Of a stretch of DNA of 64,000 bases, positions 29,850 to 52,468 are shown piece by piece. The translations under genes and the position numbers were made by a program. Origin of the DNA: Candidatus Nomurabacteria bacterium. Its GTDB lineage: Bacteria; Patescibacteriota; Patescibacteriia; UBA1558; GWA2-36-10. Location of the stretch: NCBI GenBank assembly GCA_020632415.1, contig JACKFO010000002.1:450732-514731 (forward strand), written 5' to 3'. The notes under the pieces are model-generated. The model was not told the DNA's origin, did not search any database, and saw nothing but the letters and a program-made list of their open reading frames with translations. How positions within the stretch are numbered: position 1 is the stretch's first letter; each line of letters opens with the position of its first letter.

Positions 29850-29883
29850 CTCATAAATCATAGCAAAAAAGCAAATTTTAGAC

Positions 29884-29913: not shown

Positions 29914-29934
29914 TTGTTTACATTATTTCTAAAA

Positions 29935-34006: not shown

Positions 34007-34035
34007 TTTTAAAGTTTAAAAATTATCTAAAAATT

Positions 34036-35106: not shown

Positions 35107-35118
35107 TAAAAAAAATAA

Positions 35119-35493: not shown

Positions 35494-35497
35494 AATT

Positions 35498-37240: not shown

Positions 37241-37246
37241 AAAAAA

Positions 37247-38276: not shown

Positions 38277-38279
38277 ATC

Positions 38280-39266
38280 TTATTTTGCTTGTTGATAATA
38301 AAATAAATTTGGATTCAAAGTTAAAGAAATGTTGAAACTAACACTAGCATCAGTCAAAGCTGCAGCAGAAATATCCACGTCTGTGACGAATTCTTGAGCC
38401 TGCTCTTCTTGCAAAACCTTAAGCTGTTTGGCGACTGTGTAATAGTCAGGAGCAACAGCGTCTAAGGTCAAAGCACCATTATTAACTGCCGCAAAACCAG
38501 TATAAGACACGTCATTTAAAGTGTATTTTTCTAACAAAGCAAAAAAGTTAGTCCAGTAAATATGCTGAGTCAAAGCCTCATAAACCAAGCTAATTTCTTT
38601 ACCAGTTTGGTTAATCTCTTTGCTAATATCTTCAAATTCTAACAATTTAGCTTCTATCTGAGCAATATTATTTGCTTTGTTGACTTGATTACTGCTCAAA
38701 TTAGTACTAGTTGCCAAAAGACCAAAGTAAAGAACCACCAAAATACCTAAAGAGGCAACAAAGGCTGTGATAACTAAAGTGCTAATTTGTTTCCAACTCT
38801 TAATCTTGGCTGAAGTAGGCACCAAATCAACACCTTCGGCTGAATCAATAAATCTTGCTCTGATATTTTTTTCTGGTTGATGAAATTTACCCTCTACTTT
38901 TTCCTCTGCTACTTCATTTAATTCAAAACCACTTGTTCTAATTGGTCTATCTTCTGAGCTTGAAATTTCTGGTTTCGGAGTATTATCAATTGGCGCTGGA
39001 ATAGTATTTTCTTGAGGTTTTTCTTCTACTGGCAAAGGCTTAAAATTATTTTCTTCAATTTCTGGTTTTTCTTTTTGCTTATTGTTCAAACGATTGGCAA
39101 AATTAGCCATCCATGATCCATGGCTACCACTTTCTTCTCCTGTGACAGTTGACTCTTGTTTTTTTGGAATATTTAAATCAGGCGCTTGTTCAGCGCTAAG
39201 ATTATTCGCCTTCATTTCTTTCTGGCGTAAATCTTCTGGCATTAAATTTATATTTTCTTCAGCCAT
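38280..39266 (-). CDS. PilN-like protein with a long low-complexity cytoplasmic insertion
   Basis: The extreme N-terminus MAEENINLMPED matches the conserved PilN INLLP PilM-binding motif. A single TM follows at about residue 175-197, then a periplasmic domain. Confidence 0.65.
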   Translation of the reverse strand: MAEENINLMPEDLRQKEMKANNLSAEQAPDLNIPKKQESTVTGEESGSHGSWMANFANRLNNKQKEKPEIEENNFKPLPVEEKPQENTIPAPIDNTPKPEISSSEDRPIRTSGFELNEVAEEKVEGKFHQPEKNIRARFIDSAEGVDLVPTSAKIKSWKQISTLVITAFVASLGILVVLYFGLLATSTNLSSNQVNKANNIAQIEAKLLEFEDISKEINQTGKEISLVYEALTQHIYWTNFFALLEKYTLNDVSYTGFAAVNNGALTLDAVAPDYYTVAKQLKVLQEEQAQEFVTDVDISAAALTDASVSFNISLTLNPNLFYYQQAK

Positions 39267-39276
39267 TTATTTTTGT

Positions 39277-40479
39277 TTAAATATCACGCATTGCTAGACC
39301 AATAGAAGCGGCCATTCTTGGCCCAATTTCTTGGAGCACTGGCTTTAAATCCAAAGGATAAACTATCCTGTCCCAAGGATCACCGATGATCACGGGTAAA
39401 CCTAATAACTCTGATAAATATTTTGGTAAATTTGGTAAAAAAGAACTGCCACCAGCTAGAATAATTTTTTCAATCTGTGACTCACCTTGTCTTTGATAAA
39501 GATCAAAAACGTACTTAATTTCATTAATAATTGGGTTTAAAGAATTTTGGATTGTATTTGGCACCGAACGATTTCCTACTGTTGTTAAGCCAAAATCTCT
39601 TTTGAATTGCTCTGCTCGATCGACATTAACATTCATGCTATTCATGATCGATTTAGTGATCAGATTTCCGCCAGTATCAATGCCCCTGTTTAAAATCGGC
39701 ACGCCCTCTTCAATGACACAAACATCGGTATTATTTGCGCCGATATCAACAATCATTACGCTAGACATGTCATTGCCCATCAAAGAACGAGAAAGGGCAA
39801 AGGCTTCGGTTTCCAAACTTAATAAATTTAAATTTGTACGTTTAAAAATATCTAGATATCTAGCCACTAAATTTTTTGGAGCAGCTGTTAACAAAATTCG
39901 ATAATTTTTTGCCCCTAAAACTCCACGATTAACCACTTCCTCTACTGGACCATTTTTTTCTGCTTCTTTTTTTGCTGTCTCTTCAGCCTCTGAATCTTCC
40001 TCTGAAGAATCTTCATCTTTTGTTTTTTTACTAAAAATGCTTCCTAATTTTCCAGTTAAATCAGCGCTTGCCTTTGGATCGTTAGCGACTTCTTTTTTAT
40101 TCAAAATTTTCCAGTCCAAAATCATTTCTTCAATTGGCAAAGGAATAAATTTTTTGGCTTCCCACTTGATCGCTGAAGACAGGTCTTTTTTTGGCATGGG
40201 TGGCAAAGAAATGATCGAAGTAAAAACAGAAAAAGTTGGCAAGGCAGCAATAGCTTGTCGTGATTCAATTCTAGCTTTTTTAACAATATGCTTAATATAA
40301 TCAGCAATTAACTGATTATTTTTCTCTGTTGCAGCGGATAAAATATTAGTATTAATATCAGCGTAGCCATAGGTCTTTAGCTTTGCTTGGCCTTTATAAC
40401 TTTCTAGCTCAACAATTTTAACACTGGTTGTCCCAATATCTACACCCAAATAGCTATTTACCGTAGAAAATAATTGCAT
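39277..40479 (-). CDS. pilM: Type IV pilus assembly ATPase-fold protein PilM (actin-like), with an acidic low-complexity insertion
   Basis: LGVDIGTTSVKIVEL phosphate-1 motif, actin-like fold motifs, and an inserted DEDSSEEDSEAEETAKKEAEK segment. Confidence 0.8.
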   Translation of the reverse strand: MQLFSTVNSYLGVDIGTTSVKIVELESYKGQAKLKTYGYADINTNILSAATEKNNQLIADYIKHIVKKARIESRQAIAALPTFSVFTSIISLPPMPKKDLSSAIKWEAKKFIPLPIEEMILDWKILNKKEVANDPKASADLTGKLGSIFSKKTKDEDSSEEDSEAEETAKKEAEKNGPVEEVVNRGVLGAKNYRILLTAAPKNLVARYLDIFKRTNLNLLSLETEAFALSRSLMGNDMSSVMIVDIGANNTDVCVIEEGVPILNRGIDTGGNLITKSIMNSMNVNVDRAEQFKRDFGLTTVGNRSVPNTIQNSLNPIINEIKYVFDLYQRQGESQIEKIILAGGSSFLPNLPKYLSELLGLPVIIGDPWDRIVYPLDLKPVLQEIGPRMAASIGLAMRDI

Positions 40480-40554
40480 AAAAAACTGTTTTCTTCTTTC
40501 AATAATCCTGTTCTTATTATAACATATTTTATTCTTCGCAACAAATACTTAAGC

Positions 40555-40586
40555 AACAAAAAATCCTCACCATTAAGGTGAGGATA
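40555..40586 (-). terminator. Rho-independent terminator between the Cys-rich secreted protein gene and pilM
   Basis: Perfect 9-bp stem ATCCTCACC-ATTA-GGTGAGGAT, followed on the minus strand by TTTTTTG. Confidence 0.65.
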
Positions 40587-40599
40587 AAAATTTAAAAAA

Positions 40600-42567
40600 T
40601 TAGTAAGGAGTATAATCAAATTGCGGTAAGGAATCCGCAAAATTCTGCAAACCAGCTGGTGGATTGACCTGCAAACGACCGTCGTTGATAAATTTTTCTG
40701 CTGGTTCATTGTCTGTGTTATAAGTTCTTTCTAAAACAAATTTTTTAGCAATTACTGTGCCGTTGATTTTTAACTGACTATCAATTGGCGAATCATAAGA
40801 AGAAATAAAACGACCACAATTCCATTCATCAACCGCGCAGTCTGTTCCGTCAGCTCCTAAAACAATAAATGTTCCGGAAATTTCACTTACATTACGATCA
40901 ACCCACAAATCTCCCTTGATAACCCAGACTACCGAGCCGATGTCTTTTAGTCTATCAATACTTGAAACGTCTGAAGAATAAACAATATTATTAGCAATCA
41001 ACACCGGGCCACCCCCAAAAACAACCACCCCAGAACCATTTTCTTTATTAACCGCATTATCAATTATTAAACTACTAGGAAAACCATTGAAAATCCTTGG
41101 CATGGGACTATAATAAACTGTATTATTTAATTCTATTTTACCACCATTATCAATCAAAGTACTCCAACCAGAAGACCCTGGTGGCAAAAGATCAAGTGTG
41201 GAACCATACTTATTTTTGCCAGTTGAACCAACTTCTGTAATCAAACCATCATAATCAATTTTACCCAAAGCATTGACGTATTTTCCAGCTCCATTGGAAC
41301 TTGGAAAATTAATCAAAGGACGATTTTGCAAATAACTCAAGCCATCTTTAGAGCTAGAAGCATTAAGCTGGAAAATATCACCACCTGCTTCAATAATGTA
41401 AGCATTGTAAATATCTGGTGCTAAAATATAATTTGATCTGATTTTGCCCTTAGAATAAATATCTCCTGCGTCTACTTGAAAATAAGGATTATTGCCAGCA
41501 GTAATCCTTGGCGAAAACTGAATCCACCCTACGCCATTACCAGAACCAGAGTCTTGATTCCAGGCCCAACCGCACATATAGCCAGCGCCGTCATTAGTTG
41601 CTGTCGCATAATCTACCAACAAACCTGGAATGTCATAATAATTTACGCAACTTGAACAAGTGTTTTGGTTATTTTGATAAGCATTTTCTGTACAACGAGT
41701 ATCCACGCCATCAGGACCATTAAATAAACAATCTGAACATTGATAGCCAGCAACAGAGCTAGCTAAACTACCGTCAACATTGTAAGTATATTCTAAACAA
41801 TTATCACAAGTGCGATTAACATCGCAAGTGCTGCCAGGAGACAAAGCATCACATTCTGCATCAGCAGTACAAGAAATCCCTGAATCATGGCTACAAGTTT
41901 TAGTTTCTTGACAATTAAAACAACTTTCTAAAGAGCCTGAAGGAGCTCCAATGGCGTCAATCGGAAAACCTAATTCATTTGTCCAATCTGTTTCTCCTTC
42001 CAAAATCACAATACTAGCATGACCGTTGCTATCTTGACTACCCCAAGTTCCTCCTCCATGATATAGAGCATTAGGAACTAAACTTGCTGCCGGACTCAAA
42101 CCGCTTGGCGAGTCATTTGGCCAATAATAATCATTTAAATAAACTCCATAATCAGGCGCTAAAGTACTGCCAGCTAAGCCAGGGTCATCAAAACAAATCC
42201 ACCAACCAACGCTATCAGCCCAAGCACAACCACCGACAGCGCGGACGCTTTCATCGGCTGATGCGTCTAAATATAAACCAAAATCTACTGCACCTAAGCC
42301 AGGATGCCCATCACGAACACTAGCGCAATAATTATCAGCCGCTGTTAACTCACCATCTCCATCAAAATCATTATAACAATTTAAGGTCAACCAACCGATG
42401 TTTGGCGACCAAGCCCAACCATGAAACTGAAAATCTTCTTGATTCAATCCTCCGCCTCCGGTATTTGCTTTGATTGTTTTTTGATAAATAAAGAAAACAA
42501 AAGAGATTGCCAAAATAGCAAATAAAAATATTCTGAGATAAAAATGAAAATGAAAATGCTTTTTCAT
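40600..42567 (-). CDS. Large secreted/membrane-anchored Cys-, Trp-, Asp- and Gly-rich protein with repeated GWAW...GW motifs (unknown function)
   Basis: N-terminal hydrophobic signal/anchor, Gly run, two GWAW(S/N)...GW(L/I) motifs, a roughly 100-aa region with over 20 Cys, and a C-terminal beta-rich segment. Confidence 0.45.
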   Translation of the reverse strand: MKKHFHFHFYLRIFLFAILAISFVFFIYQKTIKANTGGGGLNQEDFQFHGWAWSPNIGWLTLNCYNDFDGDGELTAADNYCASVRDGHPGLGAVDFGLYLDASADESVRAVGGCAWADSVGWWICFDDPGLAGSTLAPDYGVYLNDYYWPNDSPSGLSPAASLVPNALYHGGGTWGSQDSNGHASIVILEGETDWTNELGFPIDAIGAPSGSLESCFNCQETKTCSHDSGISCTADAECDALSPGSTCDVNRTCDNCLEYTYNVDGSLASSVAGYQCSDCLFNGPDGVDTRCTENAYQNNQNTCSSCVNYYDIPGLLVDYATATNDGAGYMCGWAWNQDSGSGNGVGWIQFSPRITAGNNPYFQVDAGDIYSKGKIRSNYILAPDIYNAYIIEAGGDIFQLNASSSKDGLSYLQNRPLINFPSSNGAGKYVNALGKIDYDGLITEVGSTGKNKYGSTLDLLPPGSSGWSTLIDNGGKIELNNTVYYSPMPRIFNGFPSSLIIDNAVNKENGSGVVVFGGGPVLIANNIVYSSDVSSIDRLKDIGSVVWVIKGDLWVDRNVSEISGTFIVLGADGTDCAVDEWNCGRFISSYDSPIDSQLKINGTVIAKKFVLERTYNTDNEPAEKFINDGRLQVNPPAGLQNFADSLPQFDYTPY

Positions 42568-42611
42568 TAAAAATAAATCTTAATTTGTTTTATTATAACA
42601 TGTTTGTTAAC

Positions 42612-42644
42612 AAAATAAAAACAACCGCGTCAGACGCGGTTGTT
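42612..42644 (-). terminator. Rho-independent terminator (palindrome CAACCGCGTCAGACGCGGTTG, also present at 1111-1131)
   Basis: ACAACCGCGTC-AGA-CGCGGTTGT flanked by an A-run (a U-run on the minus strand). Confidence 0.65.
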
Positions 42645-42658
42645 TAAATTAAGTAAAT

Positions 42659-44635
42659 TTATTTTGGAGTATACGTAATATTGGTGCAATAACCACTGTC
42701 TGTGACACTATTCATCAAAGACTGCCATCCAGTTCCATTACAGACACACAAAGCGTTATATAGAGAGAAATAATACACCATTCCTGTATTAGAAATACTA
42801 CAAGTAGGCCCCGCTGTACCGCCACCATCAAAATCTAATACTTTTGGACTACCCAAAACAACGTGACCAGAACTATTGATAGTTAAACGAGCTGCGCTAT
42901 TAGTAACCAAAGCAATATTATCATTGGCTGGAAAGTACATACCAGTATTTTCATCTGCTCGGTGAGCAAGTGAAGTATTGGCTAAAGTTCCGTCAGCTAA
43001 TTTTACAGTATTCGTAAATCTTGCTATGCCATTAACTACAAACAAATCTGTCGGCGCAGTTGTACCAACACCAACGCGATTATTAGCAGCGTCAACATAA
43101 AAATTATTAACTGTTAAATTACCGTCTTTGTCTAATTTTAATTTATCAGCTCCAGCTGTCTGTAATTTAAGTAAACTAGCACCGCTGACAGCAGAAGCAG
43201 CATTGGCATAAATCAAATTTTCTCCAGCTGCCGCTAAAGAATCATTGATCTGTACTGAACCGCCTTTAAGATAAACATCGCCAGCAAAAAAACCAGCATA
43301 GTTATTTTTGCCACCTGCATCCTGACAATAAAGATAATAATCTCCGCCCGCAAGATCTGCTTCTCTGGCTTTTTCACCAGACAAAGCACAAAGTCCTAAA
43401 CCAGCACGACCAAAACCACCACTATAAGTCCAGCCGCCAGCAGCAACTATTCCTAAAGGACCAGGGGTTTCTACCCCAGCTAAAGTTTTGTCTAGGCCAA
43501 ACAACTTACTAATCACAGTCCCGTCTGGAGGTATTTCGCCGCCAGCACCTTCTCCGCCAGGAGGAGGACTCCAACCAGTAGCGGTAGCACCTTTAAAAAT
43601 ACCCGCATAGCCAGGAGAATCAGCAAAAACACCCACTAAACTACCATTAGCGTATACTCCGGTTGTGCCAATGCCTTCAACGCCAGCATTGGTATCATAA
43701 TTTTCACCATCAGCAATTCCAACAATCGCGCTATAAAGGCTGACTGGCGAAGCATCAACTCTTAAAATTCCTTCAACGCTAGCACCATTGTCTATGGTGA
43801 CAAAACCTTCCATATAAGTAGTTCCAGTAACAATCAAATTACCAGTAAGTTCTTGATTAGCAGCATTTATATTCTGAGAAACGTTTAAATTTCCACCCGA
43901 GACGTTTAAATTTCCACCGGCAACAGTAAAGCTACTTCCAGTCACATCAGCTTCTACTCCACCCAAAACTCCCAAAGCTAAACCACCGCCAGAATTATCA
44001 AAATATCCCCCATAGCCATTAACATAAGCCGAAGACCCTCTAACACCAACAGCATTATCTGAAGCAGCGTATCCTAAAACACCAGTACCACCTTTATTGT
44101 TCGCTAAACCATAAACTCCGTAACTAGGATTAGTTTCTGAAGCAGCGTTAGTCTGTCCCCACAAACCAAAGGTATAAGCTTTATTAATGCTATTCTTTGC
44201 AGCAGTAGCCTCTACCCCTCCACACTGATCACCATCTTTAGTTGGTGCACAACTTTGTAACTCTATGACGCCATATTTACCATCTCCAGACAAATCAGCG
44301 GTCAAAGGGTTATCTAAACCTCCTCCGCCGGTCAAAAATTCTGCCACCGTATGTCCATCAATGGTATTTACATCCAAATTTCCAGAAAAGCTACCATTGG
44401 CTCCGCTAATCGTATTAACATTGATTACCGAGGCTGTAGAGCTAGAGTTACTTAAATTCCATCCATTTAAATCTAAGCTAGCACTAAGAGGATTTGTAAT
44501 TGGCGGATTAACACCGCTTGACCCCGGACCAGTGCCTGGGCCAATCCATTGGGCAAATACTTGTCTTTGTACAAAGGCAAAACCTAAAACTAAAATTAGC
44601 ACAGCCAATAGATAAAGTTGTTTCTTATTAAACAT
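42659..44635 (-). CDS. Secreted Gly/Asn/Ser-rich fibre/adhesin-like protein, paralog A (658 aa)
   Basis: Signal peptide, ...AQW, and an NP..x..DLNGWNLSN motif. Gly-rich repeats follow. A conserved block AGLGLCALSGEKA...YCQDAGGKNNYAGFFAGDVYLKGGS is shared with paralog B. The C-terminal module is CSISNTGMVYYFSLYNALCVCNGTGWQSL. Confidence 0.55.
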   Translation of the reverse strand: MFNKKQLYLLAVLILVLGFAFVQRQVFAQWIGPGTGPGSSGVNPPITNPLSASLDLNGWNLSNSSSTASVINVNTISGANGSFSGNLDVNTIDGHTVAEFLTGGGGLDNPLTADLSGDGKYGVIELQSCAPTKDGDQCGGVEATAAKNSINKAYTFGLWGQTNAASETNPSYGVYGLANNKGGTGVLGYAASDNAVGVRGSSAYVNGYGGYFDNSGGGLALGVLGGVEADVTGSSFTVAGGNLNVSGGNLNVSQNINAANQELTGNLIVTGTTYMEGFVTIDNGASVEGILRVDASPVSLYSAIVGIADGENYDTNAGVEGIGTTGVYANGSLVGVFADSPGYAGIFKGATATGWSPPPGGEGAGGEIPPDGTVISKLFGLDKTLAGVETPGPLGIVAAGGWTYSGGFGRAGLGLCALSGEKAREADLAGGDYYLYCQDAGGKNNYAGFFAGDVYLKGGSVQINDSLAAAGENLIYANAASAVSGASLLKLQTAGADKLKLDKDGNLTVNNFYVDAANNRVGVGTTAPTDLFVVNGIARFTNTVKLADGTLANTSLAHRADENTGMYFPANDNIALVTNSAARLTINSSGHVVLGSPKVLDFDGGGTAGPTCSISNTGMVYYFSLYNALCVCNGTGWQSLMNSVTDSGYCTNITYTPK

Positions 44636-44742
44636 ATTTTTTATTTTTCAATAATCTCTTTTTATTATACTAAAATTTAGCAAAAATAACAAATCCAGAC
44701 AAAATAAATTACCTGGATTGTTAAAAAAATTTAAAATTTTAT

Positions 44743-46266
44743 CTAGCTAGGAAAATAAGTGCCGTTGGTACACATGCCATTAGGAAGTCCAGGAACTAAA
44801 TTCGCCCAACCGCTAGCCCCTCGACACAGACATAAAGAATTATAATTACTAAAATAATAAACAATTCCCTCTTCTCCTGCTTTACAGGATGGCGCGGAAA
44901 TTCCTCCCCTAAAATCTATGTAACTAGCATCACTATTTAAAAACAAACTGCCATCAGCATTAAGATCACTAGCGCTAAGACTAGAAGCAAAGTACCCTGC
45001 ACCATCTTTAGATACTCTAAATTTATCAAGGCCATTATTTTGCAACTTAATCAAATGTGAACCAGCGGCAGCTGAAGAAGCGTTGCCATAAATCAAATTT
45101 TCATTAGCAGCTGTTAGGCTACCACGAATTTGCAAAGAACCGTCTTTAAGATAAACATCACCTGCAAAAAAACCAGCGTAGTTATTTTTACCATTTGTAT
45201 CCTGACAATAATTATAATAGTTTGGAGAATCTCCCAAAGCAAAATCTTTGGCTCCAGACAAAGCACACAAACCAAGTCCTGCGTGAGTCAAGGTACCACC
45301 GCCATTAGAGCCGCCAGCAGCAATCAAACCGATAGTATAGGGAGTGTAATTCCCAACCGCAGCTTGAACATGGTTTGCTCCAAGTAAACTAATCACCACC
45401 CCATTTTCTATTGGCTCCTCATTAAACTCACCTCCTGGTGGCGGAATAATTGAAATTGTTCTAGCTCCTTTTGCTAAGACTCCTTGTTCACCGTAGCCAT
45501 AGACCCCAACAACATCTCCTCCGCCATAAATACCAACGTTGCCATAGCCTTGTACTCCAGCATTAACGCCATCATAGCTTGCTACACCAACAATTGGACT
45601 TAAATCATTTTCAGTTTCCACATACAATTGACCACCATTTGCTAGTAACACCATGCCGTCAAAATACCCAGCATAATCACCTGTTCCGGCGTGTCCATAA
45701 ACACCAGCTCCGCCTGGTTTATTGCTCTGACCAAAAACACCATTGCTGCCCAAGCCAAAAACTCCAGGCGTACTCAAAGTATTTGCTGTTTCGCCATAGA
45801 CCGCATAACCATTGTTAGCTTTACCATAAACTGCAATTCCGCCAGCATTATTTGCTTCAGCAAAAACCGCATAGCTTGGATTGCTACCACTATTAGTAAT
45901 CGTCTTGGAATACAAGCCGTAAGTACGCGCATTCACAGACGAATTAACCTTGCTTGCTGTCGCGCCAAAAGCCCATTTGGTTTCATTGGCATTTGCCGGA
46001 GAGCTGGTAATATCCAAAGAACCAGCGTTCATAATCAAACGATTAGCATGAATATCATTAGCATTATTAAGATTAAAACCACTAAGATCCAAATCTTCAG
46101 TTAAAGGATTTTCTAAAAAATTTAAGTCGACATTGCCTCCTGGTGGTGGAGTATCCGGATCATTATAAGTCTGCGCTAAAACTCCGGTTGATACCGCCCA
46201 AATTGTTGTCATTAACACAAAAGCCAAGGCCAAAAACAAAGCGAATATTTTTTTATCTTTTAACAT
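44743..46266 (-). CDS. Secreted Gly-rich fibre/adhesin-like protein, paralog B (start placed at MLKDKK, the signal-peptide Met)
   Basis: Signal peptide, ...AQTY, DLSGFNLNNAN motif. HAGLGLCALSGAKD...YCQDTNGKNNYAGFFAGDVYLKDGS matches paralog A. The C-terminal module is CKAGEEGIVYYFSNYNSLCLCRGASGWANL. The hairpin at 46317-46346 would sit inside the longer track ORF. Confidence 0.55.
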   Translation of the reverse strand: MLKDKKIFALFLALAFVLMTTIWAVSTGVLAQTYNDPDTPPPGGNVDLNFLENPLTEDLDLSGFNLNNANDIHANRLIMNAGSLDITSSPANANETKWAFGATASKVNSSVNARTYGLYSKTITNSGSNPSYAVFAEANNAGGIAVYGKANNGYAVYGETANTLSTPGVFGLGSNGVFGQSNKPGGAGVYGHAGTGDYAGYFDGMVLLANGGQLYVETENDLSPIVGVASYDGVNAGVQGYGNVGIYGGGDVVGVYGYGEQGVLAKGARTISIIPPPGGEFNEEPIENGVVISLLGANHVQAAVGNYTPYTIGLIAAGGSNGGGTLTHAGLGLCALSGAKDFALGDSPNYYNYCQDTNGKNNYAGFFAGDVYLKDGSLQIRGSLTAANENLIYGNASSAAAGSHLIKLQNNGLDKFRVSKDGAGYFASSLSASDLNADGSLFLNSDASYIDFRGGISAPSCKAGEEGIVYYFSNYNSLCLCRGASGWANLVPGLPNGMCTNGTYFPS

Positions 46267-46310
46267 AATTTTATTTTTATTAACTATATTATAACACAAA
46301 ACTCTCTGAA

Positions 46311-46346
46311 TAAAAAACACCGCAACTTAAATCAGTTGCGGTGTTT
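46311..46346 (-). terminator. Rho-independent terminator downstream of fibre paralog C
   Basis: Perfect 12-bp stem AACACCGCAACT-TAAATC-AGTTGCGGTGTT with a flanking A-run. Confidence 0.65.
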
Positions 46347-46362
46347 TAAAATTTAAATTATT

Positions 46363-47772
46363 TTATTTTGATGCACAAAGAGAATCTGCTTTACCATTAA
46401 CCATCGAAATCCAAGATGAACCATCGCAATAACACAAAACTTTATTTGTCTCAAAATTATAAACAATTCCATCACTTCCTGATTTACAAGCTGGCGCCTT
46501 AGAATCATCGTCGTCATTAAAATCAAAATAACTACCGTTGCTACTGCTAAAAGTAACAGGGGCTCCGCTCTTCAAGGCAATACTACCTCCTGCTGTCAAA
46601 CCAGAATTAAAAGTACTAGCGCCAGCAACAACTCCTGAAGTAAATGTTCCTTGAGTTGCTGAAATTGTGCTAGCAAAAACACCAGCACCCAAAGCAGTCA
46701 CTCTAAATTTATCTGTGCCATTATTCTGTAATCTTAATAAATGCGCAGAGTTAGAGCTTCCTGAGGGAGCATTGGCATAAATGATATTTTCACTAGAAAG
46801 CAAAGCTGTCGTTGGCTGAATTTGCATCATTCCGTCTTGATAATAATCTCCAAGCAAATGTAATTTATAACTAGGATCAACGCCAATCCCAACATCACCG
46901 CCCATGATTGCCAAAACATTATTACCCCAAATCGACGAATTAACCGAATCAGACAAGCCAATTCCAACTGAATGACTACCAGCTACTGTTAACTTGTTAC
47001 CAAAGCCAGAAGAATAATCTCCTTCTACAACAACATCATCGCCGCCTAAGGCGACCGAATAAGCTCCAGTGCCCTTAGCAGCATAGCCAAAAGAAAAAGC
47101 ATAATCTCCATCAGCAGTAGCATTTTGACCACCAGCAAAAGAATAGGCACCATTAGCATTGTTATTATTACCGATTGCTAAAGCGCCAGCAATGCCAACA
47201 GGACCAGAAAAATAACCAGCCCAACCAGAATTTCCTAAGCCATAAATTGCAGTTCCTCCAGCGTTATTAGAAACTCCAGCTACAGCATAACTACTCGCTA
47301 CTCCGCTACCCGCCACAGTTGAGGCATAAAGCCCATAAGAAGCTTGTCCTGAACCAACTACTCCTGCTGTAAAAGTCCCAGCCGAACTAGAACCAAGCGG
47401 TCCGGTAATACTTAAAGTGCTATCATCCGCTGTAATATCGATCGTCCCGTATCCAACGCCAGGAGTATGTGGCATTGTCAATGTGTTTATTTCTACACCC
47501 GAAGCATTAAAAATTCCTAAAACCTCCAAAGAAGTCGTAGCGGTTAAAGTATTCACTCTTAAATCATCAACATTGATAATATTATTATCCTCTAAATCAA
47601 CATTACCAGTTTGATCAGGAATCAAAGGAGTATTAACTCCACTATTATCCCCTGGATCTGTTGAAGGAGCTTGCCAGGCAGCCAAAACATAATTTTGAAT
47701 TAAGATTAAACTCAAAACTGAAGCTGCTAAAACTAACAAACTTAAATGCCAATTGGCTAAAACTTTTTTCAT
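46363..47772 (-). CDS. Secreted fibre/adhesin-like protein, paralog C, with YadA-head-like (Hep_Hag-type) Gly/Ala/Ser repeats. Start placed at MKKVLANW.
   Basis: Signal peptide, ...AAWQAP, DLEDNNIINVDDL motif. Repeats of the form GAYSFAGGQNATADGDYAFSFGYAAKGTGAYSVALGG resemble trimeric-autotransporter/phage-fibre head repeats. The C-terminal module is CKSGSDGIVYNFETNKVLCYCDGSSWISM. Confidence 0.55.
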   Translation of the reverse strand: MKKVLANWHLSLLVLAASVLSLILIQNYVLAAWQAPSTDPGDNSGVNTPLIPDQTGNVDLEDNNIINVDDLRVNTLTATTSLEVLGIFNASGVEINTLTMPHTPGVGYGTIDITADDSTLSITGPLGSSSAGTFTAGVVGSGQASYGLYASTVAGSGVASSYAVAGVSNNAGGTAIYGLGNSGWAGYFSGPVGIAGALAIGNNNNANGAYSFAGGQNATADGDYAFSFGYAAKGTGAYSVALGGDDVVVEGDYSSGFGNKLTVAGSHSVGIGLSDSVNSSIWGNNVLAIMGGDVGIGVDPSYKLHLLGDYYQDGMMQIQPTTALLSSENIIYANAPSGSSNSAHLLRLQNNGTDKFRVTALGAGVFASTISATQGTFTSGVVAGASTFNSGLTAGGSIALKSGAPVTFSSSNGSYFDFNDDDDSKAPACKSGSDGIVYNFETNKVLCYCDGSSWISMVNGKADSLCASK

Positions 47773-47911
47773 AATATTTTTTATCGCTAATTTAAAAACA
47801 TTAATATTATAACATAAAATAAGAAAAACTAAAATCGTGTTGCTTTTAATTAAGAAATTCACTATAATTAAAGCAGAAAAAATATAGTAAATAGCATTTA
47901 AAAATAAAAAT

Positions 47912-48451: not shown

Positions 48452-49006
48452 ATGAACTGGTACTACATTTTACTTATTGTTGTTGTCGTTATCATTGCTT
48501 GGCTAATTTCTGTTTATAACGGTTTGATCCGTTTAAAAAACAGGGTTTCCGAAGCTTGGTCCGACATCGATGTCCAACTAAAAAGACGTTATGACTTGAT
48601 TCCAAACTTAATGGAAACAGTCAAAGGCTACATGAAACATGAAGAAGGCGTTTTGACCAAAGTAACTCAAGCTCGTGCCAATGCTATGAACGCTACCGGT
48701 ACTGAAGCCAAGGCTAAAGCAGAAAATATGCTTTCTGAAACTTTAAAAAGTTTATTTGCTGTTGCTGAAAGCTATCCAGACTTAAAAGCCTCTCAAAACT
48801 TTTTACAATTACAAGACGAAATCTCTGACACTGAAAATAAAATTCAAGCCTCTCGCCGTTTCTACAACGGACAAGTTCGAGACTTTAATACCAAGACTCA
48901 AGTTTTCCCAAATAACATAATCGCTAACATGCTTGGCTTCAAAGACTTTGAATTCTTTGAAATTGGTGATGAAAAAGAAAGAGAAAACGTTCACGTCAAA
49001 TTTTAA
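48452..49006 (+). CDS. lemA: LemA family protein
   Basis: N-terminal TM helix then the LemA signature ([31 protein letters not shown]...). Confidence 0.8.
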
Positions 49007-49017
49007 ATTAAGCCCTT

Positions 49018-49048
49018 AAAAAGCCTCGGGTTTTCCCGAGGCTTTTTT
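49018..49048 (+). terminator. Rho-independent terminator after lemA
   Basis: AAAGCCTCGGG-TTTTC-CCGAGGCTTTTTT. Confidence 0.7.
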
Positions 49049-49122
49049 ATTTACTATCTTCCTAATTAGATTGACACAAAGGCCTAATTATTGTTATATT
49101 AAACTGAAATTAAATAAAAAAC

Positions 49123-49998
49123 ATGTATAAACAAATTACTCAAAATAAAAGAAAAAGCTTTTTATTAATGCTTATTTTTATTGCTGTTATTGCTGCCCTA
49201 GCTTGGATTTGGGGTCAATACGCCGGCAATAATTCTATCGTAGTAATTGCTATTGTTTTCGCCTCTTTAATGAGCTTATTTAGCTTTTATGCTGGTGACA
49301 AAATAGCTCTAAGTCAATCTGGGGCCAAAGAAATTAAAAAAGAAGACAATCCTTATGTTTGGCGCTTAGTTGAAAACTTGAGCATTACCGCTGGATTGCC
49401 AATGCCCAAAGTTTATCTCATTCAAGATAAAAATATGAATGCCTTTGCTACTGGTCGTGATCCAGAACACGCTTCCGTTGCCTTAACCACTGGCATTATC
49501 GAAGGCTTAGAGAATGAAGAATTAGAAGGCGTGATTGCTCACGAATTATCTCACGTCAAAAATTATGATATTCGTTTAATGATGGTGGTGATTATTTGTA
49601 TCGGCGTTATTACTTTGCTCTCTGATTGGCTTTTGCGCAGTTTTATCTGGCGGGGATCTTCTCGTGATGAAAACAAAGGCGGCGGTATTGTCATTATCAT
49701 TGGTTTAATCTTGGCCGTTCTTTCCCCTCTTTTTGCAAAATTGATTCAGCTAGCCGTATCTCGCAAAAGAGAATTTTTAGCCGACGCTTCTGGCGCCTTG
49801 CTAACTCGCTATCCAGAAGGGCTAGCCAAAGCTTTGGAAAAAATATCTAATAACAATCAAGAAAATCCTCTTCGTCGTGGCAATAAAGCCACTGCTCATT
49901 TATATTTTTCAAATCCTTTTGGAAATAAAAATGTCAAAAAATTATTTTCCACTCACCCACCGGTTGAAGAAAGAATCGCTGCTTTAAGAACAATGTAA
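49123..49998 (+). CDS. htpX: HtpX-like M48 zinc metalloprotease
   Basis: HELSHV HExxH motif, four TM segments, and the conserved C-terminal E...AD region. The LemA-HtpX pairing is a common conserved gene pair. Confidence 0.8.
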   Translation: MYKQITQNKRKSFLLMLIFIAVIAALAWIWGQYAGNNSIVVIAIVFASLMSLFSFYAGDKIALSQSGAKEIKKEDNPYVWRLVENLSITAGLPMPKVYLIQDKNMNAFATGRDPEHASVALTTGIIEGLENEELEGVIAHELSHVKNYDIRLMMVVIICIGVITLLSDWLLRSFIWRGSSRDENKGGGIVIIIGLILAVLSPLFAKLIQLAVSRKREFLADASGALLTRYPEGLAKALEKISNNNQENPLRRGNKATAHLYFSNPFGNKNVKKLFSTHPPVEERIAALRTM

Positions 49999-50002
49999 AA
50001 TT

Positions 50003-52468
50003 ATGGAAGAACTAGACAATATTTTAAATAAATTCACTTATCATTTTAAAAAAGTTTTGATTAGCTCTCAAAATTTAGCTTTTGCTAAAAAACATTCTGA
50101 AATTGAAGCTTTAGATCTTTTGATTTCTTTGGTTAGTACTAAAGGCGCTTTGGGTTCAGAAATTTTAAATAAAAAAAATATTCAAAAAATTATTAATGCT
50201 GAAAATAATTTAACAACAAATATTTTAAATCAAGACCCAAGCCTACTTCCTCAACCATCAGCTGATGTTCAAAAAATTATCGAAAAAGCCGTGGTTGCTG
50301 CTTTCAAACATCAACATAAATACGTCGGAACCGAACATTTGCTTTGGGGTTTATCTGAAAGTGAAAATCCAAAAATCAAAGAAATTTGGCAAAAAATAGA
50401 CAGCTCTTCAAAAAACATTCAACAACATTTAGAATTAGTTCTGAAAGGTACTTCCAAATTTGGCGATCTAGCTGAAAATATTGAAAAAAAAAACGAATTA
50501 GAATCAATCTTGGAAAATGAAAATCTTAATAGCTTTCTAGAAAGTTTTGCTATTGATTTGACGAACCAAGAAATTCAAAATGATATTGACCCCGTAATCG
50601 GTCGACAAAATGAGATCGATCGTTTGATCCAAATCTTATCTCGTCGAACAAAAAATAACCCCGTGCTCTTAGGTGACGCCGGCGTTGGCAAAACAGCGAT
50701 CATTGAAGGTCTAGCCAAAAGAATCACTCTTGGTCAAGTACCAGATATTTTATTAAACAAAAAAATCTTAAGCTTAGACTTGTCTAGCATCATCGCTGGT
50801 ACAATGTATCGAGGAGAATTTGAATCTCGCTTAAAACAAATCATTGATGAAGCAAAAAAAGACAAAAATATTATTATCTTCATCGATGAGTTACACAACA
50901 TCATGGGCGCTGGCTCAACTGGCGGCTCACTAGACGCAGCCAATATCTTAAAACCAGCTCTTGCTCGCGGACAATTACGCTGTATCGGCGCAACTACTTT
51001 TGAAGAATACAAAAAATACATCGAAAGCGACAAAGCCTTAGAAAGACGTTTTCAGGCCATTGCTATTAATGAACCAAGTGAAATAGAAACTTACCAAATT
51101 TTACAAGGACTAAAAGAAAATTATGAAAAATTCCATAAAGTCCAAATTAGCGAAGAAGCTTTGCAGGCTGCGATTGAATTAAGTCAAAAATTTTTGCCAG
51201 ACAAAAAACTTCCAGACAAAGCAATTGACCTAATAGATGAAGCAGCTGCTAAATTTAAACTAAAAACTACCAAGAATTCTTTGATCAAAAAAATCAAAGA
51301 TCTAGAAAGCGAAATAAATCTCTGCCAAAAAAATAAGCAAGAAGCAATTTATGATGAAAATTATCTACAGGCGATTGATTACAAAAATAAAGAAGAAATT
51401 TTGATAGACAAGCTATTAAAACTCAAAGCCGTAAGCGACAAAAGTAAATATCTTTTGCAAGGCGAAATCAATGCTCAGGAAATCAAAGAAGTTGTTGCCA
51501 AAATTACCGGCATTCCTCTGTCGACAGTTTCAACTTCTGATAAAAATAAATTAATCCAACTGGAGAATAATTTGGGCAAGACTATTTTTGGGCAAGAAAA
51601 AGCAACTACTATTATTGCCAGCACTATCCGCAAATCAAAGGCTGGACTACACGACGAAAATAAACCACTCGCCTCTTTTATGTTCTTGGGACCTAGTGGT
51701 GTCGGTAAAACTGAAATGGCCAAACAACTTGCCAAAAATATTTTTGGCAGTAGCCATAATCTTTTACGGATCGATATGTCTGAGTTTGCCGAGAGCTTTA
51801 ATATTTCCAAGCTGATCGGCGCTCCTGCTGGCTATGTTGGCTACAAAGAAAGCAACAAGCTAAGTGATGTAGTTAAAAATCGTCCACATACTTTGATTTT
51901 ATTTGATGAAATTGAAAAAGCTCACAGTGACGTCTTCAATCTTTTGCTACCAATTTTAGAAGAAGGCGAATTGACCGATGCTACTGGCCGCGTTGTTAAT
52001 TTTCGTAACTGCATTATTGTCATGACTTCCAATGTCGGCTTAAACGAGTTTAATCAGCAAGCAGAAATGGGGTTTGAATCCTCTGGCTCAAAACAAGAAG
52101 AAGACTTTGTTAAAACCAGTCAAAAAATCTTGGAAACCTTACCTGACTATTTTCCACCAGAATTTTTGAATCGAATTGATAACATTGTCGTCTTTGAACC
52201 GATCGATAAACTAGCCGCTCAGAAAATTATCAAAAGAGAAATTGAATCATTGCGTCAAAAGTTACTAGTTCAAAATATCAATCTAGAGCTTGATCCAAAA
52301 ATTATCAAATATTTATTAAGCAAACAAAATTCTCTAGAAGATGGTGCACGAGCTTTGAAAAAACTAGTTGACACCGAAGTGACCAATAATATCGCCTCGG
52401 CAATTCTCAAAGCCTCTCGTCGAAAATTAAGCGTCACGCTCAATCGAGATAAAATTGTCATCAAATAA
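50003..52468 (+). CDS. ClpC/ClpB-family class I AAA+ chaperone (two NBDs)
   Basis: Clp_N repeats ([10 protein letters not shown]), NBD1 Walker [11 protein letters not shown] and Walker [12 protein letters not shown]2 Walker [13 protein letters not shown] and [11 protein letters not shown], and a short middle domain (ClpC-like length, 821 aa). Confidence 0.8.

What the first reader, a model, noticed from the sequence alone, without database searches (positions are those of the whole stretch)
40600..47772. Family of three paralogous secreted fibre/adhesin-like proteins, plus a fourth Cys-rich 'GWAW' protein, heading the type IV pilus locus
Three consecutive minus-strand genes (42659-44635, 44743-46266, 46363-47772) encode 470-660-aa secreted proteins built on one plan.
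- Each has a signal peptide, an ...AQ(W/TY)/AAWQAP segment, and a DL(N/S/E)G(W/F/N)N(L/I)xN motif.
- Long Gly/Asn/Ser/Ala-rich repeats follow. In paralog C these look like YadA-head/Hep_Hag or phage-fibre repeats.
- Paralogs A and B share a strongly conserved internal block, AGLGLCALSG...YCQD.GGKNNYAGFFAGDVYLK.GS, followed by ENLIY.NA.S...L.KLQ..G.DK.
- All three end in a shared roughly 50-aa module, ApxCxxGxxGiVY(Y/N)F(S/E)xxNxLCxCxGxxWxxL, with three invariant Cys.

Each gene has its own rho-independent terminator, so they are separately expressed paralogs. They sit directly upstream of pilMNO-pilB-pilT-pilC and downstream of another large secreted protein (40600-42567) with GWAW...GW motifs and a Cys-dense core.

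There is no PilY1-like tip adhesin anywhere in the pilus locus. This family is therefore a candidate set of host-attachment fibres or alternative pilus-tip adhesins in what looks like an episymbiotic small-genome bacterium. I do not recognise the C-terminal Cys module as belonging to any described domain.
Basis: partly seen in the sequence, partly recalled or inferred. Interest (0 to 1): 0.8.

Follow-up and report, generated by a model that had tools for sequence, protein, structure and literature searches.

The report
Variable surface fibre genes beside pilus operon
Three neighbouring genes of an ultra-small (Patescibacteria) bacterium encode related, probably fibre-shaped secreted surface proteins with constant ends and rapidly changing middles, sitting in a conserved slot next to the type IV pilus genes, which makes them untested but good candidates for how these bacteria grip their hosts.

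Summary
Four minus-strand genes (C 46363-47772, B 44743-46266, A 42659-44635, D 40600-42567) lie upstream of pilMNO-pilB-RR-pilT-pilC. Each has its own TGnTATAAT promoter-like element and hairpin terminator.

A, B and C are paralogues (E 1e-25 to 9e-58) of an unannotated Patescibacteria family.
- All 62 members gathered share an N-terminal module starting at the predicted signal-peptidase site (VxA|QW..P...PG..NPL..DLDL).
- 53 of 62 end in a C-G-C-W motif. A, B and C carry a four-Cys version, not three.
- The middles are mosaic and turn over quickly.
- Relatives carry strong YadA-head repeats (7 of 62, best E 7e-63) or a tail-fibre S74 chaperone domain. This supports a trimeric-fibre reading.

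In 40 of 44 related loci, D is immediately followed by pilM. One to three N-module genes lie between lemA and D in 25 of 27 loci with both borders visible.

The C-terminal Cys core is not unique: it recurs in tandem in giant proteins. Fibre shape, surface location and host binding remain inferred. This is a new variant of a known kind, the mosaic fibre adhesin.

The parts
46363..47772 (-). Paralogue C (469 aa): signal peptide, N-module, YadA-head-like Gly/Ser/Ala repeats, a VGIGxxPxxKL tail-fibre-type motif, the ENIIYANA..LLRLQNNGTDKF block and a 4-Cys C-terminal module.
44743..46266 (-). Paralogue B (507 aa; NCBI H6761_02515, annotated hypothetical): signal peptide, N-module, GxYG-type repeats, the AGLGLCALSG..YCQD block and a 4-Cys C-terminal module.
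42659..44635 (-). Paralogue A (658 aa; H6761_02510): same plan as B, plus an inserted tail-fibre-like segment at aa 525-596.
   Evidence: (phrog_18345, E 1.2e-8)
40600..42567 (-). Gene D (655 aa; H6761_02505). It has an N-terminal hydrophobic helix with a conserved FHFHFY motif and three GWAW..GW hairpin motifs. A Cys-dense core holds four CxxC motifs. The C-terminal part is modelled as a beta-solenoid. D belongs to a separate conserved family that sits next to pilM in related loci.
47578..47772 (-). N-module of C (signal peptide plus AAWQAPSTDPG...VDLEDNNIIN).
46057..46266 (-). N-module of B (signal peptide plus AQTYNDPDTPPPGGN..NPLTEDLDLSGFNLNN).
44441..44635 (-). N-module of A (signal peptide plus AQWIGPGTGPG..NPLSASLDLNGWNLSN).
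46363..46536 (-). C-terminal 4-Cys module of C (last 57 aa plus stop codon).
44743..44928 (-). C-terminal 4-Cys module of B (last 61 aa plus stop codon). It is the only confidently modelled part of B (pLDDT 67-86).
42659..42847 (-). C-terminal 4-Cys module of A (last 62 aa plus stop codon).
45139..45282 (-). The A/B-type internal block in B (AGLGLCALSG...YCQD..GKNNYAGFFAGDVYLKDGS), with two nearly invariant Cys.
43256..43405 (-). The same internal block in A.
46312..46346 (-). Terminator hairpin after C (AAACACCGCAAC..GTTGCGGTGTTT followed by a T run).
   Evidence: read directly; missed by the scan
44692..44719 (-). Terminator-like hairpin after B.
42619..42645 (-). Terminator hairpin after A (12-bp stem followed by a T run).
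40563..40585 (-). Terminator hairpin after D, ahead of pilM.
47806..47814 (-). TGTTATAAT extended -10-like element upstream of C.
46288..46296 (-). TGTTATAAT extended -10-like element upstream of B.
44664..44672 (-). TAGTATAAT -10-like element upstream of A.
42592..42600 (-). TGTTATAAT extended -10-like element upstream of D.
40516..40524 (-). TGTTATAAT extended -10-like element upstream of pilM.
32792..40479 (-). Context: the conserved type IV pilus machinery operon. Gene order is pilM, a pilN-like gene, pilO, a 122-aa ORF, pilB, a response regulator, pilT and pilC.
48452..52468 (+). Context: the divergent lemA - M48 peptidase - clpB genes that form the other border of the fibre-gene slot in related genomes.

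Best explanation
A, B and C are three independently transcribed paralogues of a Patescibacteria-restricted family of Sec-exported, acidic, Gly/Asn/Ser/Ala/Thr-rich surface fibre proteins.

Every member is built the same way:
- A Gram-positive-type signal peptide ends in an invariant Ala.
- A conserved module of about 35-45 residues would form the very N-terminus of the mature protein (QW..P...PG......NP(L/M)..DLDL.G..I).
- The middle is mosaic and rapidly replaced. It draws on beta-roll/YadA-head-like repeats, phage-tail-fibre-like segments and lineage-specific blocks.
- The C-terminus is short and probably disulfide-bonded (C-x-G-x-C-x-W; a four-Cys version in A, B and C).

The most likely mechanism is as follows. 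The chains assemble into trimeric fibres. The constant N-module holds them on a conserved element at the cell surface. The variable stalk and C-terminal end project outward and bind structures on the host cell. Carrying one to three different fibres broadens or retunes host recognition, as with phage receptor-binding proteins and the Bdellovibrio MAT fibres.

The genes occupy a fixed slot between lemA and gene D. D in turn always precedes pilMNO-pilB-RR-pilT-pilC. D is a separate conserved Cys-rich exported protein with GWAW hairpin repeats and a beta-solenoid like those of ice-binding proteins, ComZ and tapirin. It is the best candidate for the non-pilin protein that works directly with the pilus, as adhesin, tip or adaptor.

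Shown:
- the family and its terminal modules;
- the turnover of the middle;
- independent promoter and terminator signals;
- conserved synteny with D and the pilus operon;
- bona fide fibre domains in relatives.

Inferred:
- signal-peptide cleavage and trimerisation;
- surface anchoring through the N-module and disulfide bonding;
- host binding;
- any physical coupling to D or to the pilus.
For: Paralogy and family.

N-module:
- It is found only in A, B and C within the window, at E 1e-25 to 1e-31.
- It is conserved in 62 proteins from about 45 loci. A31 is invariant, and W34, P37, P41 and P54 are present in at least 90%.
- The N-terminal motif is found in 59 of 62.

C-terminal motif: C-G-C-W is present in 53 of 62 members and the 4-Cys form in 15 of 62.

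Fibre character:
- GNSAT content is 49-52% and pI is 4.2-4.6. Cys numbers are even: 8, 6 and 4.
- Pfam YadA_head hits 7 of 62 members (best E 6.7e-63).
- Peptidase_S74 is present in L006 7136-8494 and, independently, in a Saccharibacteria member, L055 12771-13364 (E 5.8e-18).
- A hits tail-fibre phrog_18345 at E 1.2e-8.

Turnover: where PilB, PilC and PilM stay 62-91% identical, D stays alignable over its full length at 30-53%. A, B and C keep only the 10-15% of their length that is the N-module.

Synteny:
- D is followed by pilM in 40 of 44 loci.
- The number of N-module genes between lemA/orf173 and D is 1 in 11 loci, 2 in 4, 3 in 10 and 0 in 2.

Separate transcription units.

Gene D:
- The model has pLDDT 75.
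- ComZ is a proposed pilus-tip receptor whose solenoid is itself closest to ice-binding proteins (PMC6561018).
- Tapirins are adhesins encoded next to T4P loci (bioRxiv 10.1101/359786).
- One D homologue has a Laminin_G_3 lectin domain.

Background: an MdbA-like disulfide oxidoreductase is enriched in CPR (PMC6744442). Surface adhesins and T4P are essential for epibiotic Saccharibacteria (PMC11665869).
Against: - There is no direct structural evidence for a fibre in A, B or C. The AF2 monomer of B is poor (pLDDT 45.5) and its Foldseek search found nothing significant.
- YadA_head in C is below Pfam's cut-off, and A and B have no Pfam hit at all.
- The S74 and strong YadA_head domains are in relatives, not in A, B or C.
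- Conserved adjacency in tiny, syntenic genomes can be inherited gene order rather than functional coupling. Each gene also has its own promoter and terminator, so co-regulation with the pilus operon is not shown.
- D's similarity to ComZ and tapirin is fold-level only. Foldseek found nothing significant (best E 0.24; ComZ at E 0.27, probability 0.51). Beta-solenoids resemble one another generically. D lacks a pilin domain.
- No expression, localisation or binding data exist.
Confidence: 0.55

Rival explanations
1. A, B and C are alternative type IV pilus tip adhesins. They would be incorporated at or bound to the pilus tip in place of a PilY1-type protein, so that the retractile filament itself presents them to the host.
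For: - Fibre genes, D and the pilus operon are tightly adjacent and this is conserved in 40 of 44 loci.
- Pfam finds no PilY1/PilC domain in the window's pilus-locus ORFs that were scanned.
- In Saccharibacteria, large accessory proteins without a PilD signal (PilX1, PilX2) are proposed tip adhesins (PMC11623550).
- The conserved N-module could be a docking peptide.
Against: - A, B and C lack the prepilin N_methyl motif. Pfam detects that motif in five other ORFs of the same window, and a sixth pilin-like ORF (29935-30336) shows it by eye.
- Their N-termini look like Sec signal peptides with an invariant Ala at -1.
- They are separate transcription units with terminators.
- In a Saccharibacteria locus, N-module genes occur with a GWAW protein and with no pilus gene detected in the 20 kb held.
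- D is the more conserved and more ComZ-like candidate for a pilus-associated protein.
Confidence: 0.1
2. A, B and C are S-layer or other cell-envelope structural proteins. A conserved N-terminal wall- or membrane-anchoring module would carry variable lattice-forming domains, as in Campylobacter fetus Sap or Lactobacillus Slp paralogue sets. Host attachment would be incidental.
For: - The proteins are acidic (pI 4.2-4.6) and about 50% Gly/Asn/Ser/Ala/Thr. They are exported, and each gene has its own strong-looking -10 element and terminator, typical of abundantly expressed envelope proteins.
- Paralogue sets with one constant end and a variable remainder are known for S-layer proteins (general knowledge, not tested here).
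- CPR cells are reported to have S-layers whose proteins are unidentified (my recollection of Luef et al. 2015, not checked here).
Against: - Pfam finds no SLH or other wall-binding domain.
- Family members carry domains diagnostic of trimeric fibres: YadA_head at E 6.7e-63 and the S74 tail-fibre chaperone.
- Conserved Cys pairs and a small C-terminal knob are atypical for S-layer proteins.
- Copy number varies from 1 to 3 and size from 295 to 1127 aa between close lineages.
Confidence: 0.15
3. The genes are remnants of a prophage or tailocin tail-fibre cassette that happens to lie next to the pilus operon.
For: - A matches a tail-fibre PHROG (E 1.2e-8).
- VGIGxxxPxxKL motifs are present in A and C.
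- S74 chaperone domains occur in relatives.
- The weak best Foldseek hits of B are phage fibre or hyaluronidase trimers (E above 0.1).
Against: - The region contains no other phage gene. The neighbours are clpB, M48, lemA and pilus genes.
- The arrangement is conserved in the same chromosomal slot across about 45 species-level genomes.
- All members have signal peptides, which virion tail fibres lack.
- GC content rises only slightly, from about 0.36 to 0.40, as expected from Gly/Ala-rich coding.
Confidence: 0.03
4. A, B and C are host-binding fibres as in the main explanation, but they have no functional tie to D or to the pilus. Adjacency would simply be frozen ancestral gene order in reduced genomes.
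For: - The units have their own promoters and terminators.
- The flanking clpB-M48-lemA genes are equally syntenic although functionally unrelated.
- Most GWAW-domain proteins elsewhere in CPR (about 25 of 27 loci) have no detectable N-module neighbour.
Against: - The slot keeps its position while its content is replaced many times. This suggests selection for location.
- The pairing of N-module genes with a GWAW-domain protein recurs in two other contexts, L055 (Saccharibacteria) and L076.
Confidence: 0.17

Closest known systems
Bdellovibrio bacteriovorus MAT (mosaic adhesive trimer) fibre superfamily (Caulton et al. 2024, PMC10769870)
   Same: Both are sets of paralogous, signal-peptide-bearing fibre proteins in a bacterium that lives on other bacteria. 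Both have a conserved N-terminal part directly after the signal peptide and exchangeable distal parts. Both have S74 and non-S74 subgroups and phage-tail-fibre-like segments. In both, a role in recognising diverse prey or host surfaces is proposed.
   Different: The conserved N-terminal part is about 130 aa and beta-rich in MATs, against about 35-45 aa and Pro-rich here. MAT tips are diverse, whereas most members here keep a common C-G-C-W end. MATs are dispersed in a diderm genome, whereas these sit in one slot beside D and the pilus operon of a monoderm-like CPR bacterium.
Trimeric autotransporter adhesins (YadA / Hep_Hag family)
   Same: Both have Gly/Asn/Ser/Ala-rich head-type repeats. YadA_head is strong in 7 of 62 family members and weak in C. 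Both are presumed obligate trimers with a role in surface adhesion.
   Different: Pfam detects no YadA_anchor beta-barrel or stalk domain, and CPR lack an outer membrane to hold one. Polarity is probably reversed: here the constant, presumably cell-proximal, end is N-terminal.
Phage tail fibres and receptor-binding proteins with an S74 intramolecular chaperone
   Same: The N-terminus is constant and the distal part is variable and mosaic. The tail-fibre PHROG match in A and the VGIGxxPxxKL motifs in A and C point the same way. Peptidase_S74 is present at the C-terminus of two family members.
   Different: These proteins are chromosomal and Sec-exported, and they lie in a conserved non-phage locus. 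A, B and C themselves end in a Cys knob rather than S74.
ComZ of Thermus thermophilus (pilus-tip DNA receptor) and Caldicellulosiruptor tapirins, compared with gene D
   Different: D has no pilin domain or prepilin signal, unlike ComZ. It has extra GWAW hairpin repeats and a 14-Cys core with four CxxC motifs. There is no sequence similarity. Foldseek does not reach significance.
PilY1, and Saccharibacteria PilX1/PilX2 (PMC11623550)
   Same: All are large non-canonical proteins encoded in T4P loci, lacking a PilD signal and proposed as host or glycan adhesins.
   Different: Those proteins have beta-propeller or L-type-lectin folds. Pfam finds no PilY1-type domain in A-D. D's best structural matches are beta-solenoids rather than propellers.

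Membership tests
Trimeric autotransporter adhesin (YadA family) | C-terminal YadA_anchor beta-barrel translocator | tested here: not met
   Pfam scans at E<=1 for A-C and at E<=1e-3 for 62 family members list no YadA_anchor.
Trimeric autotransporter adhesin (YadA family) | YadA_head / Hep_Hag repeats | tested here: inconclusive
   C scores E 4.9e-4 and 20.8 bits, below the gathering score of 25. A and B have no hit. Seven of 62 relatives match, best E 6.7e-63.
Phage tail-fibre / endosialidase-type fibres with S74 chaperone | C-terminal Peptidase_S74 intramolecular chaperone domain | tested here: not met
   It is absent from A, B and C. It is present in two N-module relatives: L006 7136-8494 (E 2.5e-16) and L055 12771-13364 (E 5.8e-18).
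Phage tail-fibre / endosialidase-type fibres with S74 chaperone | Sequence similarity to phage tail-fibre families | tested here: inconclusive
   A aa 525-596 matches phrog_18345 'tail fiber protein' at E 1.2e-8. B and C have only hits at E 0.0035 or weaker.
Bdellovibrio MAT fibre superfamily | Signal peptide followed by a conserved ~130-aa beta-rich N-terminal domain | not tested
The feature description comes from PMC10769870.
Bdellovibrio MAT fibre superfamily | Intertwined homotrimeric beta-helix or beta-prism stalk | not testable with these tools
   Only monomer AF2 was available. The B model has pLDDT 45.5.
Type IV pilin / minor pilin | Class III (prepilin) signal with the N-terminal methylation motif G|FTLxE | tested here: not met
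   No N_methyl hit in A-D at E<=1. The motif is detected by Pfam in five other ORFs of the window, and a sixth pilin-like ORF shows it by eye.
PilY1 / PilC tip adhesin | C-terminal PilY1/Neisseria_PilC beta-propeller domain | tested here: not met
   No such Pfam hit in A-D or in the other pilus-locus ORFs that were scanned. D's best structural matches are beta-solenoids, not propellers.
ComZ-like / ice-binding-protein (DUF3494) beta-solenoid proteins (for gene D) | Triangular right-handed beta-solenoid fold | tested here: inconclusive
ComZ-like / ice-binding-protein (DUF3494) beta-solenoid proteins (for gene D) | Pilin-like domain that hosts the solenoid (ComZ) | tested here: not met
   D has no N_methyl motif. 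Its N-terminus is MKKHFHFHFYLRIFLF..., with no Gly-1 or Glu+5.
S-layer proteins of monoderm bacteria | SLH, CWB2 or other recognised wall-anchoring domain | tested here: not met
   No such Pfam or NCBIfam hit in A-C or in 62 relatives.

The most novel reading that the evidence does not exclude
The fibre genes, D and the pilus machine form one Patescibacteria-specific host-capture apparatus. In it D would be a non-pilin adaptor carried by, or positioned at, the type IV pilus. Its GWAW hairpin domain would dock the constant N-terminal peptide of interchangeable trimeric fibres. A retractile pilus would then display swappable, phage-like receptor-binding fibres: a modular tail-fibre system mounted on a pilus, whose cassette slot is refilled as hosts change.
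Probability: 0.12. Interest if true: 0.85.

Novelty: new variant of a known kind. Interest (0 to 1): 0.6.

Why it matters
How ultra-small Patescibacteria find and hold their hosts is a central open question. So far only Saccharibacteria pilins and a few adhesins have been touched experimentally (PMC11623550, PMC11665869).

This locus offers a concrete, widely conserved candidate set for the much larger, uncultivated Parcubacteria-type lineages:
- a fixed slot next to the pilus operon that holds one to three fibre genes with constant ends and fast-changing middles;
- a conserved, Cys-rich, beta-solenoid partner gene (D) that no database names.

If the fibres bind hosts, their variable parts could be used to predict or label host range directly from metagenomes. 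The constant N-module would point to the surface element that anchors them.

The N-module, the C-G-C-W end and the D family could each be turned into profile models, which would annotate many currently 'hypothetical' CPR proteins.

Tried and rejected
1. Profile of the C-terminal module against PDB sequences. The only hits were designer beta-propellers (Cake, Bagel). Their whole-sequence E-values are inflated by summing 8-9 repeats, each insignificant on its own (i-E 1e2-1e3), and the Cys columns do not align. Rejected as spurious.

2. My recollection that the module resembles the T4 fibritin foldon. hhalign of A4 against the foldon gave probability 0.1%. Not supported.

3. AF2 monomer of B with 25 homologues. 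The model has pLDDT 45.5 and is unusable except for the last 60 residues. Foldseek against the PDB gave nothing at E<0.1. The top weak hits, phage HylP and T4 gp34, are noted but not used as evidence.

4. Profile-profile comparison of the A/B/C family against the D family. BLASTP of A against D gave one marginal match, NNYAGFFAGDVYLK versus NNPYFQVDAGDIYSK, at E 0.039. No relationship was found.

5. N-module profile against the 5.8-billion-protein index. Only 389 candidates were collected and one fragment was hit. The word index cannot seed such a short, divergent module, so the family's total size remains unknown.

6. The afdb50 fold library was unavailable.

7. D against the PDB by sequence profile, and against Pfam for all 35 members. 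Nothing was found except a lectin insertion in one homologue.

8. PHROGs for D returned nothing.

9. Literature searches for a prior description of this locus architecture or these families in Patescibacteria found none. Only open-access text was searched.

10. Source names for the giant proteins that carry tandem C-modules. Mostly unnamed: one is from a Patescibacteria MAG, and a weaker hit is from Fulvitalea (Bacteroidota).

Full report
WHAT IS THERE

The window is AT-rich (GC about 0.35). Exact protein matches identify it as part of an 842-kb contig of a 'Candidatus Nomurabacteria bacterium'. B is H6761_02515, A is H6761_02510 and D is H6761_02505, all annotated as hypothetical.

Four consecutive minus-strand ORFs sit at the stated coordinates:
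- C, 46363-47772, 469 aa
- B, 44743-46266, 507 aa
- A, 42659-44635, 658 aa
- D, 40600-42567, 655 aa

The mechanical ORFs of B and C run further upstream. They match the starts of all homologues and the family consensus MxKxxxNWHLS. They also lie just downstream of TGTTATAAT elements.

Downstream, Pfam confirms PilM, PilO, PilB (MshEN + T2SSE), a response regulator, PilT and PilC; the unannotated ORF between PilM and PilO is called PilN-like from its position. Further on are a prepilin peptidase, N_methyl pilins or minor pilins and a PilX_N protein.

Upstream on the other strand are a 173-aa ORF, lemA, an M48 peptidase and clpB.

TRANSCRIPTION UNITS

Each intergenic gap contains a hairpin followed by a T run, and then a -10 element of the extended type.
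- Terminators lie after C at ~46312-46346 (read directly), after B at 44692-44719, after A at 42619-42645 and after D at 40563-40585.
- TGTTATAAT lies upstream of C, B, D and pilM, and TAGTATAAT upstream of A.

The four genes and the pilM operon therefore look like five separate units. These are consensus matches, not expression data.

THE A/B/C FAMILY

The three are clearly paralogous.
- B vs A: E 9.2e-58 on database scale.
- B vs C: E 1e-25 and 1e-12.
- A vs C: E 3e-13 and 6e-11.

There is one correction: the C-terminal module has four invariant Cys, not three.

The proteins are acidic (pI 4.2-4.6) and 49-52% Gly/Asn/Ser/Ala/Thr. They contain even numbers of Cys: 8, 6 and 4. That fits fully disulfide-bonded exported proteins. 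An MdbA-like disulfide oxidoreductase is one of the CPR-enriched families (PMC6744442).

No curated model covers them.
- Pfam and NCBIfam give nothing for A, B or D. For C, NCBIfam gives nothing and Pfam gives only a sub-threshold YadA_head hit.
- PDB sequence searches give nothing meaningful.
- PHROGs gives one solid hit: A aa 525-596 to a tail-fibre family at E 1.2e-8.

About 30 close relatives exist in the 5.8-billion-protein index. All are unnamed or 'hypothetical', and all come from Patescibacteria-type contigs.

THE LOCUS IN OTHER GENOMES

Look-ups of D homologues and a scan of one genome per GTDB species with a D profile gave 79 loci. I annotated these with HMMs built from the window's proteins.

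- Of 44 D homologues of at least 500 aa, 40 are immediately followed by pilM. Two of the other four are cut by contig ends and two are weak partial hits.
- The full order clpB-M48-lemA | fibre genes - D - pilM-pilN-pilO-(~115 aa)-pilB-RR-pilT-pilC recurs in MAGs labelled Parcubacteria, Komeilibacteria and Buchananbacteria. MAGs labelled Kuenenbacteria, Falkowbacteria and Uhrbacteria keep the D-pilM core with more divergent D genes.
- Where both borders of the slot are visible (27 loci), it holds 1 (11 loci), 2 (4), 3 (10) or 0 (2) genes with the same N-terminal module as A, B and C.

CONSTANT ENDS, CHANGING MIDDLE

I aligned 62 distinct slot proteins of 295-1127 aa.

The nearly invariant positions fall at the two ends.
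- At the N-terminus: A31 (invariant), W34, P37, P41 and P54.
- At the C-terminus: C461, G467, C481 and W487.

By pattern count, 59 of 62 have the N-terminal motif. 53 of 62 end in C-x-G-x-C-x-W, and 15 of 62 have the four-Cys elaboration seen in A, B and C.

The N-module starts at what looks like a signal-peptidase I site (V-x-A|Q-W), so it would be the extreme N-terminus of the mature protein. Even the hydrophobic leader is unusually conserved (NNWHLS...).

The middle is not conserved. Where PilB, PilC and PilM remain 62-91% identical to the window's proteins, D stays alignable over its full length at 30-53%. A, B and C retain only 10-15% of their length, which is the N-module.

Pfam on the 62 proteins finds YadA_head repeats in seven (best E 6.7e-63) and Peptidase_S74 in one. 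A further N-module protein in a Saccharibacteria locus also ends in S74 (E 5.8e-18).

YadA-head beta-rolls and the S74 tail-fibre chaperone are both hallmarks of obligate trimeric fibres (established knowledge; S74 is described in PMC10769870). On that basis I read the family as trimeric fibres. For A, B and C themselves this remains inference. The AF2 monomer of B is poor (pLDDT 45.5). Only the C-terminal module is confident (pLDDT 67-86; short beta strands). Foldseek finds nothing significant.

THE C-TERMINAL CYS MODULE IS NOT PRIVATE

A 62-position profile of the module was searched against 1.84 billion representative proteins. It found 141 proteins at E<=1e-3.

Besides family members, many hits are giant proteins of up to 6043 aa. 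They contain 2-10 tandem copies of the core C-x5-(E)G-x-(I)YY(N/D)-x6-8-L-x-(V/Y)C(N/D)G-x2-W. Some of these also carry C-type lectin or BclA_C domains.

No Pfam model covers the module. It is therefore undescribed in the curated libraries I could search, but it is a widespread small module rather than a novelty of this locus.

GENE D

D belongs to a different conserved family, with 46 or more relatives and no Pfam domain. It is not related to A, B or C.

Its sequence features are:
- a hydrophobic N-terminal helix preceded by a conserved FHFHFY motif;
- three GWAW...GW motifs;
- a core with 14 invariant Cys, including four CxxC motifs;
- a very conserved C-terminal AExFINDGRL motif.

An AF2 model built from 35 homologues is reasonable: pLDDT 75 and pTM 0.52, with residues 353-419 disordered.

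The ComZ paper itself reports ice-binding proteins as the closest relatives of its solenoid and proposes ComZ as a pilus-tip receptor (PMC6561018). Tapirins are cellulose adhesins encoded beside T4P loci. One D homologue carries an inserted ConA-like lectin domain.

There are caveats. Foldseek does not reach significance. Beta-solenoids resemble each other generically. D has no pilin domain.

I conclude that D, rather than A, B or C, is the best candidate for a non-pilin protein working directly with the pilus. Confidence in this is moderate to low.

MECHANISM AND RIVALS

The best-supported reading is that A, B and C are exported trimeric surface fibres.
- The constant N-module fixes them to a conserved element at the cell surface.
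- The variable stalk and C-terminal knob contact the host.
- One to three alternative fibres tune host recognition.

This is the logic of phage receptor-binding proteins and of the Bdellovibrio MAT fibres. MATs share the pattern of a signal peptide followed by a constant N-terminal domain, mosaic distal parts, and S74 and non-S74 subgroups (PMC10769870).

The link to D and the pilus rests on conserved position only. Weak extra support comes from two other contexts in which a GWAW-domain protein sits next to N-module genes (L055 and L076).

The rivals are:
- true pilus-tip adhesins (no pilin features; about 0.10);
- S-layer or envelope proteins (the composition fits, but the fibre domains and Cys argue against; about 0.15);
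- phage remnants (contradicted by synteny and signal peptides; about 0.03);
- fibres with no functional tie to the pilus (about 0.17).

NOVELTY

I found no description of this slot, of the N-module family or of the D family in the searchable literature. Curated libraries do not name them.

The kind of thing, mosaic trimeric fibre adhesins of a bacterium that lives on other cells, is known. The terminal modules, the fixed cassette slot beside a conserved solenoid protein and the pilus operon, and the phylogenetic setting are new. I therefore rate it a new variant of a known kind. It is of solid interest to CPR biology, but so far it rests entirely on sequence inference.

Noticed in passing
window 37247-37615 (-): A 122-aa ORF with no Pfam hit lies between pilO and pilB. 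An ORF of 112-122 aa occupies the same position in every related locus looked up. It may be an unnamed conserved component of the CPR pilus machine.
   Followed up: partly
window 35119-35493 (-): A stand-alone response-regulator receiver gene sits between pilB and pilT. It is conserved there in nearly all related loci. This suggests PilG/PilH-like control built into the operon.
   Followed up: partly
L055 9986-15924 (MAG labelled 'uncultured Candidatus Saccharibacteria'): A 333-aa protein made of GYAWSSNVGWI hairpin repeats, like the N-terminal domain of D, is followed by four small paralogues of 134-231 aa. These carry the motif AAWSAPQNNPPDGNTPAPIN, and one ends in Peptidase_S74 (E 5.8e-18). 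No pilus gene was detected in the 20 kb held. The pairing of a GWAW protein with N-module fibres therefore recurs outside the pilus locus.
   Followed up: partly
window 40600-42567 (-), D aa 216-332: The Cys-dense core contains four CxxC motifs (CFNC, CDNC, CSDC, CSSC) at the turns of long, confidently modelled beta-hairpins. All are invariant in 35 homologues. This could be a stack of disulfides or two metal sites. It is unexplained.
   Followed up: no
P0074 and other D homologues of 920-1135 aa (for example L020, L023, L037, L047): D homologues vary from about 515 to 1135 aa through insertions. One insertion is a Laminin_G_3 / ConA-like lectin domain (E 2e-18). Loci with long D genes usually have only one N-module gene.
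   Followed up: partly
P0009 (769 aa; L009 3998-6304): One B-type orthologue carries an internal duplication of the whole stalk plus the AGLGLCALSG...YCQD block. This is an example of the modular growth of these proteins.
   Followed up: no
L008 7937-9904, L031 6622-8349, P0029, P0030: Some N-module proteins end in a different short Cys motif, (G)SC(T)(L/M)TI(R/K)(G/N)GLVTATTCP, instead of the C-G-C-W module. This is a second alternative C-terminal cap.
   Followed up: no
L039, L044 (about 1145-aa ORF) and L040, L042 (about 578-aa ORF) upstream of D: In a few lineages, including loci labelled Kuenenbacteria and Falkowbacteria, the slot holds a large ORF in which my N-module HMM finds nothing at E<1e-3. 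In a later iterated search, L044's ORF did match weakly. These are probably very divergent members or replacements.
   Followed up: no
window 59637-61505 (-): An ORF of 622 aa contains a TraG/VirB4-like P-loop ATPase domain (TraG P-loop E 5.5e-29). It probably belongs to the Patescibacteria type IV secretion system described in PMC12102498.
   Followed up: no
window 29151-30077 and 29935-30336 (-): The mechanical ORF of the family-2 glycosyltransferase overlaps the 3' part of a pilin gene by about 140 nt. The GT2 domain starts only at aa 81, so its true start is probably downstream. A methyltransferase gene follows at 28591-29151. Possible pilin-modification genes are thus embedded among the pilin genes.
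   Followed up: no
L011, L012, L014, L017 and other loci: Several MAG records titled 'uncultured Gammaproteobacteria bacterium' carry the typical Patescibacteria locus, with 44-50% identity in D and the same synteny. The record titles are evidently generic or wrong.
   Followed up: no
window 40516-47814, five intergenic regions: The same extended -10-like sequence (A/T)TGTTATAAT precedes C, B, D and pilM, and TAGTATAAT precedes A. No good -35 was evident by eye. This may be the typical promoter form of this organism.
   Followed up: no
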